Assembly (NCBI GenBank): GCA_947628065.1
Contig: CANQYK010000001.1
Coordinates: forward strand, 7,372-71,371
Direction: 5' to 3'
Source of the DNA: an uncultured Bacilli bacterium
Lineage (GTDB): Bacteria > Bacillota_I > Bacilli_A > RF39 > UBA660
Length of the DNA stretch: 64,000 nt
The first letter of the stretch is position 1. Each line of letters opens with the position of its first letter. Positions 50,984-55,558 of the stretch are shown one piece after another. Under the pieces are notes generated by a model, which saw only the letters and a list, made by a program, of their open reading frames with translations, ran no database searches and was not told the origin of the DNA. The position numbers and the translations under genes were made by a program.

Positions 50984-53900
50984 CTATTTTGCTTTTCCTT
51001 CTAACGTTTGTTTTTTCTCTTGTTCCATTACATACTTGTTAAGTGCTTCTACCATATTGGAGTAACCTAACGCATTCATATTATCGGCAATAAAATTATC
51101 GTGTAAATATCCTCTTTTCTCTTCTATTGTTTTCTCTTTGTTTCGCTCTGCAAAATGATTCTCTCCAAAATCCCATACGGTATAAGATGCTTTAAATTCA
51201 TCAAAATTCTTATTCTTACTTGCTTCTACAAAACTTTTCGCAGCATCATAGAAAGATCCACCATGTTGTAAAATCCAATTTTCAATACCAGAGCCTCCCA
51301 TTCCTCCTTGTGTTTCATCACTTCGTTTTGGTTTATAAATATGATTTTCTTTAAAGAATTGTTTGGCAAGTAATATATTTCCTACTACATACTGATACTT
51401 TTCTTCATCCTGACTTTTTATCGTATCAAGCCGATCTTTCAAACAAGCATCGGTAGAATAAGCTATTTTATTTGTTTTAACTGCAAAGGAAATATCTACA
51501 TCAAGCGAAGTTCCATCTTCTGTTTCTACTCCTTTATAACGAAAATCACCACCATTTGTCTCAACCATTTGTTCTGTTTTATATTTGGTAAGTTCTTCTC
51601 TTAATGTACCTTTAAATATCTTATATTTTTCTTCGTCTTGCATTAGCTCTCTATCAACGCGCAGTAGGAAATCAAAATCCCCTTCCCCTAATGAATTGGT
51701 AGATCTTCCCGTTGATCCTGTATCGATTAATTCAACAGAAGAAGGTGTTAAGTCTCCATCGATTTCTCTTTTTAAGGTCAGAGAAGATCCTGTTTTCTCA
51801 TTATAAACCGATAAAGCATTTTCTATCATTGCATCTATTTTTTCTCTTTTTTCTTTCGTTTTTTCTTCGTTTTCTTTTAAATGTCCAACAATTTCTTCTA
51901 TTTCCTCATTTACAAGATGACTTGAAAAATGATATTCTTTGGTACCATAATAAGAAAGTCCATCCATTTTCTCTCTTAAATCTTGATACTCTTCTTCGGT
52001 ATAAATAAGATTTCCACTAAAATCAACCACTGGAATATAAAGACCATTTCGAGCAAGTTCAAACTTTATGGTATTTAAATCATCATAACGTCCAGCCTCA
52101 CTTTCAAGGTAACAAACATTCCCCGATACGTCATATGGTTGGTCTTTGTTAATGGTTAGATTTTTCTTATATAAAATATAGTCTACATCGGTAAAAGAAA
52201 ATCCTGTTCGGATACCATAATGATTATCATAACCAGTTTGAAACATTTCAAGTTTCTTGGGATCGTATTTTGTAACCACCTCTTCTTGATCTTTTTCTCT
52301 TGTTATAACAAGATTGGGATTATCCTTTCGTAATACAACATAAACATTTCCAAAACCAAAACCAGTTGGTGTTCCCTTTATCGCATCATATATATTTTTA
52401 TTCTCTTTTATCCTCGTAAAGTCAACATCCAAAGGTGTTGTATCCGATTCACTGCGATTGGTAAAAGTTGCCAAATACTCTTTGCTATAATTTCCTGTAT
52501 TAAGAGAACTTCCTAATACTTTAAAGTCCCCAATTGACCGTAGAAAGTCTCCTTCTTCCAATTGAAATTTTTTTGTTTTTAATTCTTCTGCTCTTTCTTT
52601 ATTTCTTCGGTTCGCATCCTTTATCGTATTTTTGATATCTTCTTTCATACTAGCATAAGAAGGGTATCCTGCAAAATAAGCAAAACTTCGAACAATTCGG
52701 TCTTTTAAATCATAACGACTGGTCACTTCCATTTTTTGTTTATAATAAGATAATTTTTCTTCCAAGCTTTCTTCCTTTCTTGCATCTTTTTTCCCTTTTT
52801 CCGTATTTTGATAAAGTGTTTCTAGATGTGATAAGAACAAAGTAAGTGTAGATTTTTCTTCCTTACTAAGCGTTGATACTTGTTGTTCTCCCCTTTCTAT
52901 TTTCTCAAGTAAGGTATTTCCTTCTTCTAGATTGGAAAGATAAGAAAGCAAATCTCTACTTCCTGATTTTACAGCATTTCTTATCATATCATTATAAAGA
53001 ATCATAAACCGGTAATCCGTAGGACTTCCATTTTTTAAACCAACATGTGGAAGATAAGAATTTTGTAACATTGGTGCCATTCTACTGTGATCCGTAAAAT
53101 TAAACTCTTCTAAGTTTGGGTATAGTATTTGAAAACAACGAAACATTTTCCCAACCATGGGCAAATTATTTTTTATAAATACTTCTTCCATTTGTTCTAG
53201 ACTATCCATAGGAGCATCTGATTTTAGTAGTTGTTTGGCGAAAGAGTTACAGAAGGTATTCATCTCACTCGCATTGGATAGGGTAATTTGTTTTAAAATA
53301 GTAACCAAATCGTCCATCTTATCAACATCAACTTCATAGTTTTCCTCTTTAAGATAATCATTAAAAACATCTTCCAACTCCATATTTAAAACTCTATCAT
53401 AGATCGATACTGCTTTTAGATATTTTGTATTCCTAAGAACAAAATTGGTATCACTTTGAAATAATTTCGTAAGACCCAAAAATTGAGATGGAAAACCATA
53501 AAGGATATTGGTGTGATCAAATTGTTCTAATAAATCCATATTCTTCTCAAAGTCTTCTAAGGTAAGTTCTTTTTTATAAAATTTTTCTTTTATAGCATCT
53601 TTTAGATGCTCCTTTACAAAAAGATTGGGATAACGATTTTTAAAGTGGGTTGGCATACTACTATCATACTTCATTCCCTTATCGATTGCATTTTTTATTT
53701 TCTCATCTATTTGTGTTAGTAGTTCTTCTTTGGTTAAATTTTCTCCTTCTATTCTTTCTATTTTAGCTCCTGTTATATAGCTTTCATAAAGAAGTAAAAA
53801 ATCAAAACCTTCTTTTTGTCCAAAAACATCATAAATAGAGTTTAACAACCCATTTGGTAGTTCATCAAAAACAACACGAAGATCTTTTTCTCTTAATAAG

Positions 53901-55558
53901 TCGATATACTCAGGATGCGTTTTCAAAAAGTTCGAATGAATCCCTGTTTTATAAAAAGCAACTTGTAAATCATAAGGAGCATCTGGATCAAGAAAAATAT
54001 CACTATGACGCTTTCTAAAATCCCCTTCAATAAAAGAATAATCATATATCTTTTTCTTCTCTCTTAAAAATTTTACAAACTGATTTTCAAATGCATCATA
54101 GGAAAGTCCTCTTTGCGAAAACCAAAAAAGATCATAAATAGAAAAGGAAGTTTTTTCTGAGGTAAAAAATTTTGTATTTGCTTCTAGCTTTTGAAGATTG
54201 TAAATACCCAATCTTTGAAGTATTTCATTTTGATATGGATCACACAAAATCGTATTTTTATCATATTGTAGTAATTCTTCCATTGAGGAAAAAGAATCAA
54301 CAATTTTAAAATTCATAGATGAAAAATAATCGGGTAAAGCATGTGGATCTATTTTCTGTTTTAAAATATATTGCTTTATCATTTGATAAAATATATCTTC
54401 ATAAGAAAGAGTTTCTATTTCTTCTTTCGAAATCGCATGAGTCAAAGAATTCAATTCTTCCATCGGAATATTTTGAAAAACATCTTCGTATTTAACGAGT
54501 AAAGTATGAAAATTTTCGGTTCCAAAAAGAGAACTAATTTTTTTTATCTCTTCTGCTTCTAAAAAGGTAAGAAAAAATTCGAAAGGTGCATCTTTAAAAA
54601 TAGAAAGATGATCCAATACGTCCTTTAAACTTAATTCTTTTGCATAGTATTTTTCTCTTAACCAATCTGGCATTTCTTTCTCTTGTAAAAAGATATCTTC
54701 ATTTTTCCTTTGAAACCGTTTGGTATAGTCCTTTAAATTTATTTTCTCCACACTATTTTCTAAAATATTTTTTCTTACTCTCTCATCACAAAGTGGCAAA
54801 ATATCTTCGATCCTACTTTGTTTTAAAAGCTCTAAAAAGGAATCATTTTCTCTTTTTGTAATATCACTTTCATAATCACGATAACTATAGCCTAATTTAT
54901 GAATTAAAGAAGATACTTCTTGGTAGGCATCCTTAGAATATTGGTATAATTCTTTCATTCTAATAAAACCAAAAGCATTGATCATACCATCTATTTCCAC
55001 ATTAGAATAAGACGTAGTATAACCTTTCTCCGTCATTTCTTTTAACTGTTCATTCGAAAGTAAGGCAATATCTTCGATGGTAATGGTACGATTTAATATT
55101 TTTTTCTTTGTTTCGTTATCAAAAGAAGAGGATAAAAAAATATTACTTTTTTCGACCAATTCTCTATCAAAAAATTCTTCTTCTCTTAATTTGTATGGTA
55201 TTTGTTTGGGATCGGAAATATTACAACTTTTAAAATTTGCCCTTGAAATATCATACGTTTCAATTATATTAAAATCAATATTCGCAAAAGTTCCTTCAAA
55301 ATTAGGAAATCGCGTACCATCTTGATCTTCCATAAGCACAAAGCCTTCCCATGCTTCAAATGGAATGTCCCTTAAATCATACGATAAAAGAGCTTCTTGC
55401 ATATTAAAATATTGTTTTATGGCTTCCTTTTCAAAAGAAGCCACATCAAAATTAGAGTTATTTTCTTCTTCCCCTAATTTTTCACCTGTCTCCTCTAAAT
55501 AATGAAGAAGTTCTTCTTTTCTTCTTAAAAATTCTTCTACCGTTAACTTCTCTCTCAT
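50984..55558 (-). CDS. giant (1524 aa) cytoplasmic protein with a C-terminal Pol-beta-superfamily nucleotidyltransferase resembling archaeal class I CCA-adding enzymes
   Basis: There is no signal peptide or TM segment. The C-terminal roughly 250 aa contain GSTGRSTNSLGEGDFDFLL (hG[GS]...DxD), a third acidic motif LDVDISF, and GGMGGSGIENWILQHGGSF, which recalls GFSGYLCELLIVFYGSF of archaeal CCA enzymes. The N-terminal roughly 1200 aa have no motif I recognise apart from a short pentapeptide-repeat-like stretch (FANIDFNIIETYDISRANFKSCNISD). Confidence 0.6.
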   Translation of the reverse strand: MREKLTVEEFLRRKEELLHYLEETGEKLGEEENNSNFDVASFEKEAIKQYFNMQEALLSYDLRDIPFEAWEGFVLMEDQDGTRFPNFEGTFANIDFNIIETYDISRANFKSCNISDPKQIPYKLREEEFFDRELVEKSNIFLSSSFDNETKKKILNRTITIEDIALLSNEQLKEMTEKGYTTSYSNVEIDGMINAFGFIRMKELYQYSKDAYQEVSSLIHKLGYSYRDYESDITKRENDSFLELLKQSRIEDILPLCDERVRKNILENSVEKINLKDYTKRFQRKNEDIFLQEKEMPDWLREKYYAKELSLKDVLDHLSIFKDAPFEFFLTFLEAEEIKKISSLFGTENFHTLLVKYEDVFQNIPMEELNSLTHAISKEEIETLSYEDIFYQMIKQYILKQKIDPHALPDYFSSMNFKIVDSFSSMEELLQYDKNTILCDPYQNEILQRLGIYNLQKLEANTKFFTSEKTSFSIYDLFWFSQRGLSYDAFENQFVKFLREKKKIYDYSFIEGDFRKRHSDIFLDPDAPYDLQVAFYKTGIHSNFLKTHPEYIDLLREKDLRVVFDELPNGLLNSIYDVFGQKEGFDFLLLYESYITGAKIERIEGENLTKEELLTQIDEKIKNAIDKGMKYDSSMPTHFKNRYPNLFVKEHLKDAIKEKFYKKELTLEDFEKNMDLLEQFDHTNILYGFPSQFLGLTKLFQSDTNFVLRNTKYLKAVSIYDRVLNMELEDVFNDYLKEENYEVDVDKMDDLVTILKQITLSNASEMNTFCNSFAKQLLKSDAPMDSLEQMEEVFIKNNLPMVGKMFRCFQILYPNLEEFNFTDHSRMAPMLQNSYLPHVGLKNGSPTDYRFMILYNDMIRNAVKSGSRDLLSYLSNLEEGNTLLEKIERGEQQVSTLSKEEKSTLTLFLSHLETLYQNTEKGKKDARKEESLEEKLSYYKQKMEVTSRYDLKDRIVRSFAYFAGYPSYASMKEDIKNTIKDANRRNKERAEELKTKKFQLEEGDFLRSIGDFKVLGSSLNTGNYSKEYLATFTNRSESDTTPLDVDFTRIKENKNIYDAIKGTPTGFGFGNVYVVLRKDNPNLVITREKDQEEVVTKYDPKKLEMFQTGYDNHYGIRTGFSFTDVDYILYKKNLTINKDQPYDVSGNVCYLESEAGRYDDLNTIKFELARNGLYIPVVDFSGNLIYTEEEYQDLREKMDGLSYYGTKEYHFSSHLVNEEIEEIVGHLKENEEKTKEKREKIDAMIENALSVYNEKTGSSLTLKREIDGDLTPSSVELIDTGSTGRSTNSLGEGDFDFLLRVDRELMQDEEKYKIFKGTLREELTKYKTEQMVETNGGDFRYKGVETEDGTSLDVDISFAVKTNKIAYSTDACLKDRLDTIKSQDEEKYQYVVGNILLAKQFFKENHIYKPKRSDETQGGMGGSGIENWILQHGGSFYDAAKSFVEASKNKNFDEFKASYTVWDFGENHFAERNKEKTIEEKRGYLHDNFIADNMNALGYSNMVEALNKYVMEQEKKQTLEGKAK

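What the first reader, a model, noticed from the sequence alone, without database searches (positions are those of the whole stretch)
50984..55558. 1524-aa cytoplasmic protein ending in an archaeal-CCA-enzyme-like nucleotidyltransferase
The C-terminal roughly 250 aa carry the Pol-beta NTase signature (GSTGRSTNSLGEGDFDFLL, then LDVDISF). They also carry a neck-like segment, HIYKPKRSDETQGGMGGSGIENWILQHGGSF. This parallels the class I (archaeal) CCA-adding enzyme segment GIYGAE...GFSGYLCELLIVFYGSF, not the class II bacterial CCA/PAP type. The preceding roughly 1200 aa are acidic and helical-looking, and I recognise no ATPase, nuclease or membrane motifs. A bacterial protein of this size with this NTase type is not something I can place in a described family. 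Large single-gene NTase-containing proteins are candidates for nucleotide-signalling, RNA-tailing or defence functions.
Basis: partly seen in the sequence, partly recalled or inferred. Interest (0 to 1): 0.68.

Follow-up and report, generated by a model that had tools for sequence, protein, structure and literature searches.

The report
Giant orphan protein ending in nucleotidyltransferase
A 1,524-residue soluble protein from an uncultured gut bacterium belongs to a large, completely unannotated family whose tail is an intact nucleotide-transferring enzyme, closest in shape to the archaeal tRNA CCA-adding enzyme and to eukaryotic RNA-tailing and immune-signalling enzymes; relatives that swap or add toxin domains hint at a role in conflict rather than housekeeping.

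Summary
Window 50984-55558 (minus strand) is one 1,524-aa ORF with a strong ribosome-binding site, and every quoted motif is present.

The last ~300 aa fold confidently (pLDDT >90) into a two-lobed Pol-beta nucleotidyltransferase (NTase). The best PDB match is the A. fulgidus class I CCA-adding enzyme. Cid1/TUT4/GLD-2, OAS1 and bacterial CD-NTases score almost as well. All catalytic and triphosphate-binding residues are invariant in 80/80 relatives.

It is not a CCA-adding enzyme, because the tRNA-binding body and tail domains are missing. No Pfam, NCBIfam, PADLOC or PDB sequence model matches the protein.

Before the NTase lies an orphan beta-rich domain with its own invariant polar residues. 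Before that lies a 959-aa helical-repeat scaffold with no structural relative.

The scaffold family has 717 clusters at 50% identity, almost all from uncultured gut Bacilli/Mycoplasmatota MAGs. It is absent from phages, plasmids and viral contigs.

The gene evolves much faster than its housekeeping neighbours. Paralogs carry a different C-terminal module. Giant relatives add an ADP-ribosyltransferase exotoxin domain, in two loci next to a T7SSb toxin-chaperone gene.

Best reading: an active RNA- or nucleotide-directed NTase on a modular, conflict-type scaffold. Substrate and cellular location are unknown.

The parts
50984..55558 (-). Whole ORF, 1,524 aa plus TAG stop
   Evidence: An identical protein (P0001) is seen on 3-4 independent contigs.
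55564..55569 (-). Ribosome-binding site AGGAGG, 6 nt before the ATG
   Evidence: Read directly from the sequence.
52682..55558 (-). N-terminal scaffold, aa 1-959. Almost all alpha-helical, with a helical hairpin at aa 7-57 and a short beta segment at aa 60-115. No known fold.
   Evidence: AF2 pLDDT 75.8, pTM 0.41. Foldseek PDB best E=0.95. phmmer finds 717 representative clusters.
54632..54715 (-). Scaffold repeat motif copy 1 (aa 282-309, FQRKNEDIFLQEKEMPDWLREKYYAKEL)
   Evidence: Regex and family alignment. HMM blocks hit repeatedly within single proteins.
53939..54019 (-). Scaffold repeat motif copy 2 (aa 514-540, FRKRHSDIFLDPDAPYDLQVAFYKTGI)
53564..53644 (-). Scaffold repeat motif copy 3 (aa 639-665, FKNRYPNLFVKEHLKDAIKEKFYKKEL)
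52064..52561 (-). Middle domain part A (aa ~1000-1165). Orphan beta-rich domain with invariant GDF (1003-1005), E1027, TPLDxD (1041-1046), R1087, E1104, H1113 and GxRTG (1115-1119). Found only in the giant proteins.
   Evidence: Alignment A6 of 34 genomes. AF2 pLDDT 30-80. No PDB or Pfam hit. Absent from the stand-alone 400-aa versions.
51914..52063 (-). Middle domain part B (aa 1166-1215, ExAxNGxYIPVVD...LRxKMxGLSYY). Shared with the stand-alone ~400-aa NTases.
   Evidence: HMM positions 170-257 hit the stand-alone proteins at E 1e-16 to 1e-20.
51791..51880 (-). Long linker or 'spine' helix (aa 1227-1256) leading into the NTase core. Aligns to the N-terminal helix of the A. fulgidus CCA enzyme.
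51455..51781 (-). NTase catalytic (head) lobe, aa 1260-1368. Contains G1281, S1282 ... D1294-F-D1296 (nt 51662-51718) and the third carboxylate D1355 in LDVDISF (nt 51485-51505).
   Evidence: AF2 pLDDT >90. Foldseek. 80/80 invariance. NTP_transf_2 hit in 28/89 and SMODS in 15/89 homologs.
50987..51454 (-). NTase helical (neck, PAP/OAS1-type) lobe, aa 1369-1524. Contains AKxxFK-x4-YK (K1399, K1403, Y1408, K1409), QGGMGGSGIENWILQHGGSF (to aa 1436), and the family-specific FGENH (1464-1468) and HDNF (1486-1489).
55621..55636 (-). Upstream copy of the 16-nt palindromic motif GACAAATAGTGTCAAA. Possibly an operator in the promoter region; whether it belongs to this gene is uncertain.
   Evidence: exactly 2 copies in 64 kb against 0.11 expected.
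50952..50967 (-). Downstream copy of the same 16-nt motif, 17 nt after the stop codon and ahead of the promoter of the next gene. Whether it belongs to this gene is uncertain.

Best explanation
The gene encodes a soluble, modular giant protein of an undescribed family.

Shown:
- The C-terminal ~300 aa are a catalytically intact two-lobed Pol-beta-superfamily NTase. It has a metal-binding Asp triad, a GS loop and a Lys/Lys/Tyr/Lys triphosphate-binding helix. It forms a new clade beside archaeal class I CCA-adding enzymes, non-canonical poly(A)/poly(U) polymerases, OAS/cGAS and bacterial CD-NTases.
- It is always preceded by a conserved element and linker helix. In the giant proteins it is also preceded by an orphan beta-rich domain with its own invariant acidic, basic and His residues.
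- The first 959 aa are a fast-evolving helical-repeat scaffold with no known fold.

Inferred:
- The enzyme binds an NTP with two divalent metals. It transfers the NMP onto a 3'-OH (or 2'-OH) of an RNA end or of another nucleotide, without a template.
- The middle domain selects or gates the substrate.
- The scaffold acts as a carrier or targeting module for interchangeable enzymatic heads.
- Family behaviour places it in inter-organism or genetic conflict (effector-, toxin- or defence-like), not in housekeeping tRNA maturation. That behaviour includes rapid divergence, tandem paralogs with a different C-terminal module, and fusions to an ADP-ribosyltransferase exotoxin domain and a transglutaminase-like core. 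In two loci a T7SSb toxin-chaperone gene is adjacent.

Whether this particular protein acts inside its own cell or is exported is not resolved.
For: NTase fold and active site:
- AF2 model of aa 960-1524: pLDDT 81.5, pTM 0.79, NTase part >90.
- Foldseek PDB: 1uet 5e-5, Cid1 1.5e-4, TUT4 2.6e-4, GLD-2 3e-4, OAS1 3e-4, CdnE 9e-4, CdnC 1.4e-3.
- Collinear alignment to A. fulgidus CCA residues 17-188 (reference sequence verified).
- Catalytic set invariant in 80/80 sequences.
- Weak NTP_transf_2, SMODS and DNA_pol_B_palm hits among homologs.

Modularity:
- Of 155 scaffold proteins, 100 end in middle domain + NTase and 36 in another module.
- Tandem paralogs in L008/L087.
- ADPrib_exo_Tox after the NTase in L014 and L010; Transglut_core in L079 and P0175.
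- A DUF4176 gene directly downstream in L014/L010. DUF4176 proteins are T7SSb toxin chaperones (PMC12478183).

Rapid evolution: in the syntenic ortholog, RNase J and mini-III are 72% and 71% identical, against 30-34% (scaffold), 51% (middle domain) and 43% (NTase) for this gene.

Family size and host range: 717 representative clusters. 408 matching stretches in a one-genome-per-species collection, the best 80 nearly all gut Bacilli, Mycoplasmatota or 'Tenericutes' MAGs.
Against: - No activity, substrate or localisation has been observed. All function is inferred from fold and family context.
- The window gene has no toxin hallmarks of its own. It has no recognised trafficking domain and no downstream immunity-like ORF (109-nt gap, then a PGM-like gene with its own promoter). 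It has no DUF4176, and a rough tblastn with an EsxA sequence recalled from memory found no homolog in the window. Its surroundings are housekeeping genes.
- The DUF4176 link rests on two closely related loci only.
- Four of 155 relatives carry an extreme C-terminal tail-anchor helix, which would keep the protein on the cytoplasmic face of the membrane. That argues for an intracellular role in at least some members.
- Structural similarity cannot separate RNA-tailing chemistry from oligonucleotide-synthase chemistry, because TM-scores and E-values are nearly tied.
- The N-terminal model rests on only 9 sequences.
Confidence: 0.45

Rival explanations
1. It is a nucleotide second-messenger or oligonucleotide synthase (OAS/cGAS/CD-NTase-like). 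The scaffold and middle domain act as a sensor that switches it on, as part of an anti-phage or stress-signalling pathway.
For: SMODS hits in 15/89 homologs (best 7.9e-5). A weak PADLOC 'oligonucleotide cyclase' hit for the stand-alone relative P0081 (0.002). Foldseek matches to OAS1, CdnE, CdnC and a cGLR at E 3e-4 to 1.4e-3. A large N-terminal region could act as a sensor.
Against: No PADLOC hit for the target. No effector or Cap-type gene nearby and no conserved neighbourhood at all. RNA-tailing enzymes score as well or better in the fold search. A signal without a linked receptor or effector is unusual for CBASS-type systems.
Confidence: 0.17
2. It is an exported polymorphic toxin or effector (T7SSb-type or another route). 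The NTase is the warhead, acting in a competitor bacterium or host cell, for example by tailing or blocking tRNA/RNA 3' ends.
For: A conserved N-terminal region with interchangeable C-terminal modules. ADP-ribosyltransferase exotoxin fusions. A DUF4176 T7SSb-toxin chaperone gene next to two giants. Fast evolution. The N-terminus is a confident helical hairpin (aa 7-57) followed by a [YHSF]DLxx motif whose fifth residue is D or E in 7 of 8 relatives. From memory, that resembles T7SS substrate signals; it is a lead only.
Against: No LXG or other trafficking domain was detected. There is no immunity-like gene downstream in the window, no DUF4176 or Lap genes, and no WXG100 hit in a rough tblastn. 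Tail-anchored relatives imply a cytoplasmic orientation. DUF4176 is found only in L014/L010. Most family members have a different N-terminal type.
Confidence: 0.2
3. It is a protein nucleotidyltransferase (AMPylase or UMPylase, GlnE/GlnD- or antibiotic-NTase-like) that modifies a protein or small molecule. One possibility is a conserved Thr, Ser or Tyr in its own middle domain.
For: The Pol-beta fold supports such chemistry (established for GlnE, GlnD, KNTase and MNT). The strictly conserved but low-confidence SDxTPLDxD loop next to the NTase could be a substrate or regulatory loop.
Against: GlnE, GlnD, KNTase and MNT structures do not appear among the top 50 Foldseek hits. The helical lobe is of the PAP/OAS1 type typical of RNA- and nucleotide-directed enzymes.
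Confidence: 0.1
4. It is a bona fide (if oversized) housekeeping CCA-adding or tRNA 3'-end repair enzyme of the archaeal class I type.
For: The best single structural match is the A. fulgidus CCA enzyme, with a collinear motif alignment. One homolog gives a faint tRNA_NucTransf2 hit (0.035). The gene sits near RNase J, mini-III and an RNA methyltransferase-like gene (read from the translations).
Against: The body and tail domains that hold the tRNA are missing: only ~88 aa follow the GSF motif, against ~250 in the archaeal enzyme. There is no NCBIfam hit. The gene evolves far faster than its housekeeping neighbours. The RNA-gene neighbourhood is not conserved. The family is confined to one bacterial clade, with paralogs and toxin fusions. 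The tRNA upstream of the ortholog in L009 already encodes CCA.
Confidence: 0.05

Closest known systems
Class I (archaeal) CCA-adding enzyme, e.g. Archaeoglobus fulgidus (PDB 1uet/1r89)
   Same: Top structural match. Same order and register of the GS loop, the [DE]xD pair, the third Asp strand, the Lys-rich helix and the '...IY...G.SG..E..I...GSF' turn. The head-and-neck bilobed arrangement is the same.
   Different: The body and tail tRNA-binding domains are absent. About 1,260 aa of unrelated sequence lie upstream. Sequence similarity is marginal (25% over 162 columns, E=0.057). The host is bacterial, the gene evolves fast and it has paralogs.
Non-canonical poly(A)/poly(U) polymerases (Cid1, TbTUT4, GLD-2/TENT2, Trf4, CutA)
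   Same: Foldseek E of 1.5e-4 to 6e-3. The NTase core is inserted in a PAP/OAS1-type helical substrate-binding lobe, and the K..K....Y triphosphate-binding helix is conserved.
   Different: No PAP-associated (PF03828) profile match. These are eukaryotic families. The flanking domains are different.
OAS1 / cGAS-like receptors / bacterial CD-NTases (CdnC, CdnE; Pfam SMODS)
   Same: Foldseek E of 3e-4 to 8e-3. Weak SMODS hits in 15/89 homologs. A long helix precedes the catalytic core.
   Different: There is no CBASS operon or effector neighbour. PADLOC does not recognise the target.
Polymorphic toxins of Firmicutes exported by T7SSb (LXG toxins with Lap and DUF4176 helpers)
   Same: A conserved N-terminal region with swappable C-terminal enzymatic modules. 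An ART toxin domain and a DUF4176 chaperone gene occur in some relatives.
   Different: No LXG domain. No immunity, Lap or DUF4176 genes in this window, and no WXG100 hit in a rough tblastn. The scaffold is about five times longer than an LXG domain.
Polyvalent proteins of phages and conjugative elements (Iyer, Burroughs, Anand, de Souza & Aravind 2017, PMC5512222)
   Same: Very long multidomain polypeptides that can combine NTase, ART and peptidase-like domains.
   Different: Their NTase is a minimal, NTox45-like four-strand version; this one is two-lobed. This family is chromosomal and absent from phage, plasmid and IMG/VR collections.

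Membership tests
Pol-beta superfamily nucleotidyltransferase (fold level) | hG[GS]-x9-13-Dh[DE]h motif | tested here: met
   G1281-S1282 ... D1294-F-D1296, invariant in 80/80.
Pol-beta superfamily nucleotidyltransferase (fold level) | Third catalytic carboxylate on a neighbouring beta strand | tested here: met
   D1355 in LDVDISF, 80/80. It aligns to D110 of the A. 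fulgidus CCA enzyme.
Pol-beta superfamily nucleotidyltransferase (fold level) | Alpha/beta NTase core fold | tested here: met
   AF2 pLDDT >90. All of the top 50 Foldseek PDB hits are NTase-fold proteins.
Class I (archaeal) CCA-adding enzyme | Head and neck domains with class I motifs | tested here: met
   Top Foldseek hit is 1uet. Collinear hhalign to residues 17-188, though E is only 0.057.
Class I (archaeal) CCA-adding enzyme | Body and tail domains that bind the tRNA acceptor/T-arm | tested here: not met
   The protein ends 88 aa after the GSF motif, whereas the archaeal enzyme continues for ~250 aa. The alignment stops at residue 188 of 437.
Class I (archaeal) CCA-adding enzyme | Match to curated family models (Pfam tRNA_NucTransf2, NCBIfam cca) | tested here: not met
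   No hit for the target. One of 89 homologs hits at E=0.035.
Class I (archaeal) CCA-adding enzyme | Template-independent addition of C-C-A to tRNA | not testable with these tools
   Needs an enzyme assay.
CD-NTase / CBASS (SMODS) | Profile match to CD-NTase/SMODS models | tested here: inconclusive
   The target has no Pfam or PADLOC hit. 15/89 homologs hit SMODS weakly. P0081 hits a PADLOC cyclase model at 0.002.
CD-NTase / CBASS (SMODS) | Operon with a nucleotide-activated effector (and often Cap genes) | tested here: not met
   Neighbours are a PGM-like gene, murG, murB, RNase J and similar. No neighbourhood is conserved across 79 loci or around the stand-alone versions.
Non-canonical PAP/TUTase | NTase core plus PAP-associated domain (PF03828) | tested here: not met
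   No PAP_assoc hit. Only structural similarity.
T7SSb LXG-type polymorphic toxin | N-terminal LXG or other known trafficking domain | tested here: not met
   No Pfam hit at E<=1. The N-terminal model has no PDB relative.
T7SSb LXG-type polymorphic toxin | Variable C-terminal toxin modules on a conserved N-terminal region | tested here: met
   100 NTase-ending against 36 alternative-module proteins. ART additions. Tandem paralogs.
T7SSb LXG-type polymorphic toxin | Adjacent immunity gene and T7SS helper genes (WXG100, Lap, DUF4176) | tested here: not met
   None in the window. DUF4176 occurs only beside the giants in L014/L010. WXG100 was checked only by a rough tblastn with an EsxA sequence recalled from memory; Lap genes were not searched for specifically.
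Polyvalent proteins of mobile elements | Encoded on a phage, prophage or conjugative element | tested here: not met
   No hits in 50,697 phage records, 72,556 plasmid records or IMG/VR. Flanks are housekeeping genes.
Polyvalent proteins of mobile elements | Minimal NTox45-like NTase domain | tested here: not met
   This NTase is two-lobed with a PAP/OAS1-type helical domain. The family description is in PMC5512222.

The most novel reading that the evidence does not exclude
The family may be a new class of modular effectors of uncultured, small-genome gut Bacilli. In this reading a giant helical scaffold delivers interchangeable enzymatic heads. The commonest head would be an OAS/cGAS/TUTase-like NTase, acting in another cell (host epithelium, protist or rival bacterium) by tailing RNA 3' ends or by making immune-type nucleotide signals. 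That would be a bacterial mimic of eukaryotic innate-immune or RNA-surveillance enzymes. The orphan middle domain would be a second, undescribed catalytic or substrate-recognition domain.
Probability: 0.15. Interest if true: 0.85.

Novelty: new variant of a known kind. Interest (0 to 1): 0.6.

Why it matters
About 1,500 residues of a protein found in hundreds of gut-associated bacterial species are invisible to every curated family library.

The enzymatic end is a bacterial branch of an NTase group otherwise known from archaeal tRNA maturation, eukaryotic RNA tailing and innate-immune signalling. Its substrate would therefore say something about how that enzyme group diversified.

If the conflict reading is right, the family would give uncultured gut Bacilli a large, previously unseen repertoire of modular effectors. 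It would also add two further orphan domains with enzyme-like conservation: the middle domain and the alternative C-terminal module.

The catalytic residues are fully defined, so the hypothesis can be tested directly with a ~360-565-aa recombinant fragment and two point mutants.

Tried and rejected
1. Full-length and C-terminal-profile sequence searches against Pfam, NCBIfam, PADLOC and PDB gave no hit.

2. The third homologous-protein search used a 33-sequence N-terminal profile and was swamped. Only the 8,000 candidates sharing most words are scored, and the query is Lys/Glu-rich. It returned 5 known hits and added no depth. The N-terminal AF2 model therefore rests on 9 sequences.

3. Conserved gene neighbourhood: none. 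Only the close relative L009 shares RNase J and mini-III.

4. Mobile-element origin: rejected. There are no phage, plasmid or IMG/VR matches, and the flanks of the giants are housekeeping genes.

5. Identity with the NTase of 'polyvalent proteins': rejected, because those are minimal NTox45-like domains.

6. Idea that the middle domain is an ADP-ribosyltransferase, prompted by a faint BFVD hit to an 'ART-PolyVal-like' phage protein (E=0.05): no support from PDB or Pfam profile searches.

7. Idea that large no-Pfam ORFs next to the stand-alone NTases are split-off scaffolds: rejected. L082_899 and L083_766 are related to each other (36% identity), but profile HMMs find no relation to the scaffold.

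They may lie in the helical linker.

9. The alternative C-terminal module of the paralogs has no PDB relative either.

10. I first labelled the upstream 291-aa ORF 'polysaccharide deacetylase-like' from reading the sequence. Pfam gives no hit, so the label is withdrawn.

11. Two frame or size errors of my own were corrected and rerun.

Full report
OBSERVATION. The coordinates 50984-55558 hold a single open reading frame on the minus strand. It is 1,524 aa long with an ATG start and a TAG stop, and an AGGAGG ribosome-binding site lies 6 nt upstream. Homologs align from residue 1, so the start codon is sound. The protein is acidic (net charge about -71) and has no hydrophobic segment (maximum 19-residue Kyte-Doolittle value 0.8). 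That fits a soluble cytoplasmic protein but does not prove it. The window has about 30% G+C. It otherwise holds ordinary chromosomal genes: SMC, murB, murG, a phosphoglucomutase-family gene, RNase J, mini-RNase III, Pol I, ComEC and pyruvate kinase.

NO CURATED FAMILY COVERS IT. Pfam, NCBIfam, PADLOC and PDB sequence searches give nothing, either with the full protein or with a profile of the C-terminal module. The word-indexed homolog search found only 9 clusters, none named and none with a Pfam domain.

THE C-TERMINAL MODULE IS A TWO-LOBED NTase.
- A profile of the last ~270 aa recovered more than 130 proteins. Many are fragments of giant proteins. Some are genuine ~400-aa stand-alone versions, for example P0081 on a 219-kb contig.
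- With an 89-sequence alignment, AlphaFold2 modelled aa 960-1524 at mean pLDDT 81.5 and pTM 0.79, with the last 300 residues above 90.
- Foldseek against the PDB puts the A. fulgidus class I CCA-adding enzyme first (1uet, E=5e-5). It is followed closely by Cid1, NF90/NF45, TbTUT4, GLD-2, OAS1, CdnE, a cGAS-like receptor, CdnC and Trf4.
- I recalled the A. fulgidus sequence and verified it as an exact match to PDB 1r89/1uet residues 1-261. Profile-to-sequence alignment to it is collinear. G46-S47 aligns with G1281-S1282, E59/D61 with D1294/D1296, and D110 with D1355. 'LKANGIYGAE..GFSGYLCELLIVFYGSF' aligns with 'KENHIYKPK..GGMGGSGIENWILQHGGSF'. Statistical support from sequence alone is weak (E=0.057, 25% identity over 162 columns).
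- Among homologs scanned individually, 28/89 hit NTP_transf_2, 15/89 hit SMODS, 3 hit DNA_pol_B_palm and 1 faintly hits tRNA_NucTransf2.
- Across 79 independent genomic loci plus the target, G1281, S1282, R1285, D1294, D1296, D1355, K1399, K1403, Y1408 and K1409 are invariant in 80/80. The enzyme is almost certainly active.

IT IS NOT A CCA-ADDING ENZYME. Only 88 residues follow the GSF motif. The alignment covers residues 17-188 of the 437-residue archaeal enzyme, so the body and tail domains that hold the tRNA are missing. The fold search cannot separate RNA-tailing enzymes from oligonucleotide synthases, because scores are nearly tied. The module is best described as a new clade within the class I CCA / ncPAP-TUTase / OAS / CD-NTase group.

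THE REST OF THE PROTEIN.
It is beta-rich.
- In 34 genomes it carries invariant polar residues: GDF (1003-1005), E1027, TPLDxD (1041-1046), R1087, E1104, H1113, GxRTG (1115-1119) and ExAxNGxYIP (1167-1176). That pattern looks like an active or binding site rather than a linker.
- It has no PDB or Pfam relative.
- Only its last ~85 residues, plus the linker helix, are shared with the stand-alone 400-aa NTases. The minimal conserved unit is therefore 'NGxYIP element - helix - NTase'.
- The first 959 aa are almost entirely helical, with a confident N-terminal hairpin and a short beta segment at aa 60-115.
- They contain at least three copies of a motif, F-x3-5-[PED]-x-[IL]-F-...-[FY]-[FY]-x3-L (aa 282, 514 and 639). 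HMM blocks hit repeatedly within single family members.
- Foldseek finds no relative; the best E is 0.95, and the matches are generic alpha-solenoids.

FAMILY, DISTRIBUTION AND EVOLUTION.
- An exhaustive phmmer search with aa 1-959 finds 717 representative clusters (50% identity) at E<=1e-3 and 156 at E<=1e-30. Most are 1,300-1,750 aa, with giants up to 6,114 aa.
- A scan of one genome per species finds 408 stretches encoding the middle domain + NTase module. The best 80 come almost exclusively from uncultured gut Bacilli, Mycoplasmatota, 'Tenericutes' or Erysipelotrichaceae MAGs of humans, rabbits, ruminants and mice. Their ORFs are mostly 1,300-1,650 aa.
- The module is absent from 50,697 phage records, 72,556 plasmid records and IMG/VR.
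- Gene neighbourhood is not conserved.
- In the one syntenic relative (L009), RNase J and mini-III are 72% and 71% identical. This protein is only 30-34% identical in the scaffold, 51% in the middle domain and 43% in the NTase. It evolves far faster than its housekeeping neighbours.

MODULARITY AND TOXIN-TYPE COMPANY.
- Of 155 scaffold-bearing proteins, 100 end in middle domain + NTase. Another 36 end in a different ~650-aa module with its own invariant Cys-Cys/His/Asp/Glu motifs and no known relative. The remaining 19 (mostly truncated) have neither.
- In one genome the two types are tandem neighbours. A piece of the alternative module is fused after the NTase in two others.
- Four giant relatives extend the architecture. 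L014 (4,279 aa) and L010 (3,021 aa) carry an ADP-ribosyltransferase exotoxin domain ~575 aa after the NTase (E about 1e-14). L079 and P0175 carry a transglutaminase-like core near the N-terminus. L012 carries an insect-allergen-type repeat.
- In L014 and L010 the next gene encodes a small DUF4176 protein (E=2e-28). That family has recently been shown to be chaperones of T7SSb-exported toxins (PMC12478183).
- These features are typical of polymorphic-toxin or effector families. They are not features of the window gene itself. It has no recognised trafficking domain, no immunity-like ORF in the 109-nt gap before the next gene, and no DUF4176. A rough tblastn with a recalled EsxA sequence found no WXG100 homolog.
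- Four of 155 relatives end in a tail-anchor helix, which would keep them on the cytoplasmic face of the membrane.
- The 'polyvalent proteins' of mobile elements are not a match. Their NTase is a minimal NTox45-like domain and they sit in phages or conjugative elements.

MECHANISM (INFERRED). By analogy with every characterised member of this NTase group, the enzyme should bind an NTP. The triphosphate would be held by R1285, K1399, K1403, Y1408 and K1409. Two metals would be held by D1294, D1296 and D1355. The NMP would then be transferred to a hydroxyl of an acceptor lying in the cleft between the lobes. The PAP/OAS1-type helical lobe favours an RNA 3' end or a second nucleotide as acceptor. 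The conserved element and helix that always precede the core, and in giant proteins the orphan middle domain, are the obvious candidates for substrate choice or gating. The scaffold looks like a carrier for interchangeable heads.

PROBABILITIES. I put about 0.95 on the fold and 0.85 on catalytic competence. I put about 0.6 on an RNA or nucleotide acceptor and about 0.5 on a conflict-type role. I put 0.45 on the combined statement. The rivals are a secreted toxin specifically, a second-messenger synthase, a protein nucleotidyltransferase and a true CCA enzyme. They are listed with their tests.

VERDICT. The resemblance is to a superfamily, not only to CCA enzymes. The 'helical' N-terminal 1,200 aa include a conserved beta-rich orphan domain. 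The protein is a founding example, in this window, of a large unannotated family. I found no description of it in the literature searched. I rate it as a new variant of a known kind of enzyme in a novel architecture, with interest 0.6.

Noticed in passing
window 50952-50967 and 55621-55636 (both on the minus strand): An identical 16-nt palindromic motif, GACAAATAGTGTCAAA (TGACA-N5-TGTCA), occurs exactly twice in the 64-kb window (0.11 expected). One copy lies in each intergenic region flanking the target gene. The upstream copy overlaps the stop codon of the preceding ORF. The downstream copy sits ahead of the extended -10 promoter of the PGM-like gene. It could be a shared operator site or an insertion footprint. 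It is absent from the syntenic relative L009.
   Followed up: partly
window 27704-30616 (-) and 14776-16404 (-): Two further large ORFs (970 aa and 542 aa) have no Pfam match. BLAST finds no relation to the target family.
   Followed up: partly
window 60248-63508 (-): A 1,086-aa ORF is built of repeated ~110-aa Thr/Asn-rich units (recurring '...TC.I.TPTIS.N.NTPTIIGYS...') and ends in a Gly/Pro-rich tail. It looks like a surface protein.
   Followed up: no
window 55628-56503 (-) and 45767-46678 (-): The 291-aa ORF directly upstream of the target has an N-terminal hydrophobic segment. It and a 303-aa ORF near the ftsQ-like gene both lack any Pfam match.
   Followed up: partly
L011 (Mycoplasmatota MAG CASEGV010000009.1), nt 6864-9701: The family member is 946 aa when TGA is read as stop but 1,558 aa when TGA is read through. 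Some lineages that carry the family may therefore use genetic code 4.
   Followed up: no
L008 / L087 (CALVOU010000023.1): Two scaffold paralogs lie in tandem. P0006 (1,675 aa, alternative C-terminal module) is followed by a 347-aa ORF and then a 1,463-aa NTase-ending paralog.
   Followed up: partly
L014 nt 13188-13562 and L010 nt 9419-9793: A small DUF4176 protein (T7SSb toxin-chaperone family) is encoded directly after the 3,000-4,300-aa NTase+ADP-ribosyltransferase giants, followed by nusG, rplK, rplA and rplJ.
   Followed up: yes
L082 nt 7231-9927 and L083 nt 296-2596: Stand-alone ~400-aa NTases are flanked by large no-Pfam ORFs (899+ aa and 766 aa) that are homologous to each other (36% identity). 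They may be a recurring partner of the stand-alone form.
   Followed up: partly
A7 (alternative C-terminal module, e.g. P0006 aa ~1300-1400): The alternative module has strictly invariant residues: TLTDCCQE, MEHSM, GRxF, QSWVWRN and CFDNIEIP. The pattern looks like an uncharacterised enzyme, possibly thiol-dependent. It has no PDB relative.
   Followed up: partly
L086 (JGI 3300018475 contig), nt 7434-9014 and 16442-17281: The family member P0003 lies between PBP/PASTA and MraY/FtsW cell-wall genes, as the window gene lies beside murG and murB. A serine recombinase lies two genes upstream and a Fic-domain gene three genes downstream.
   Followed up: no
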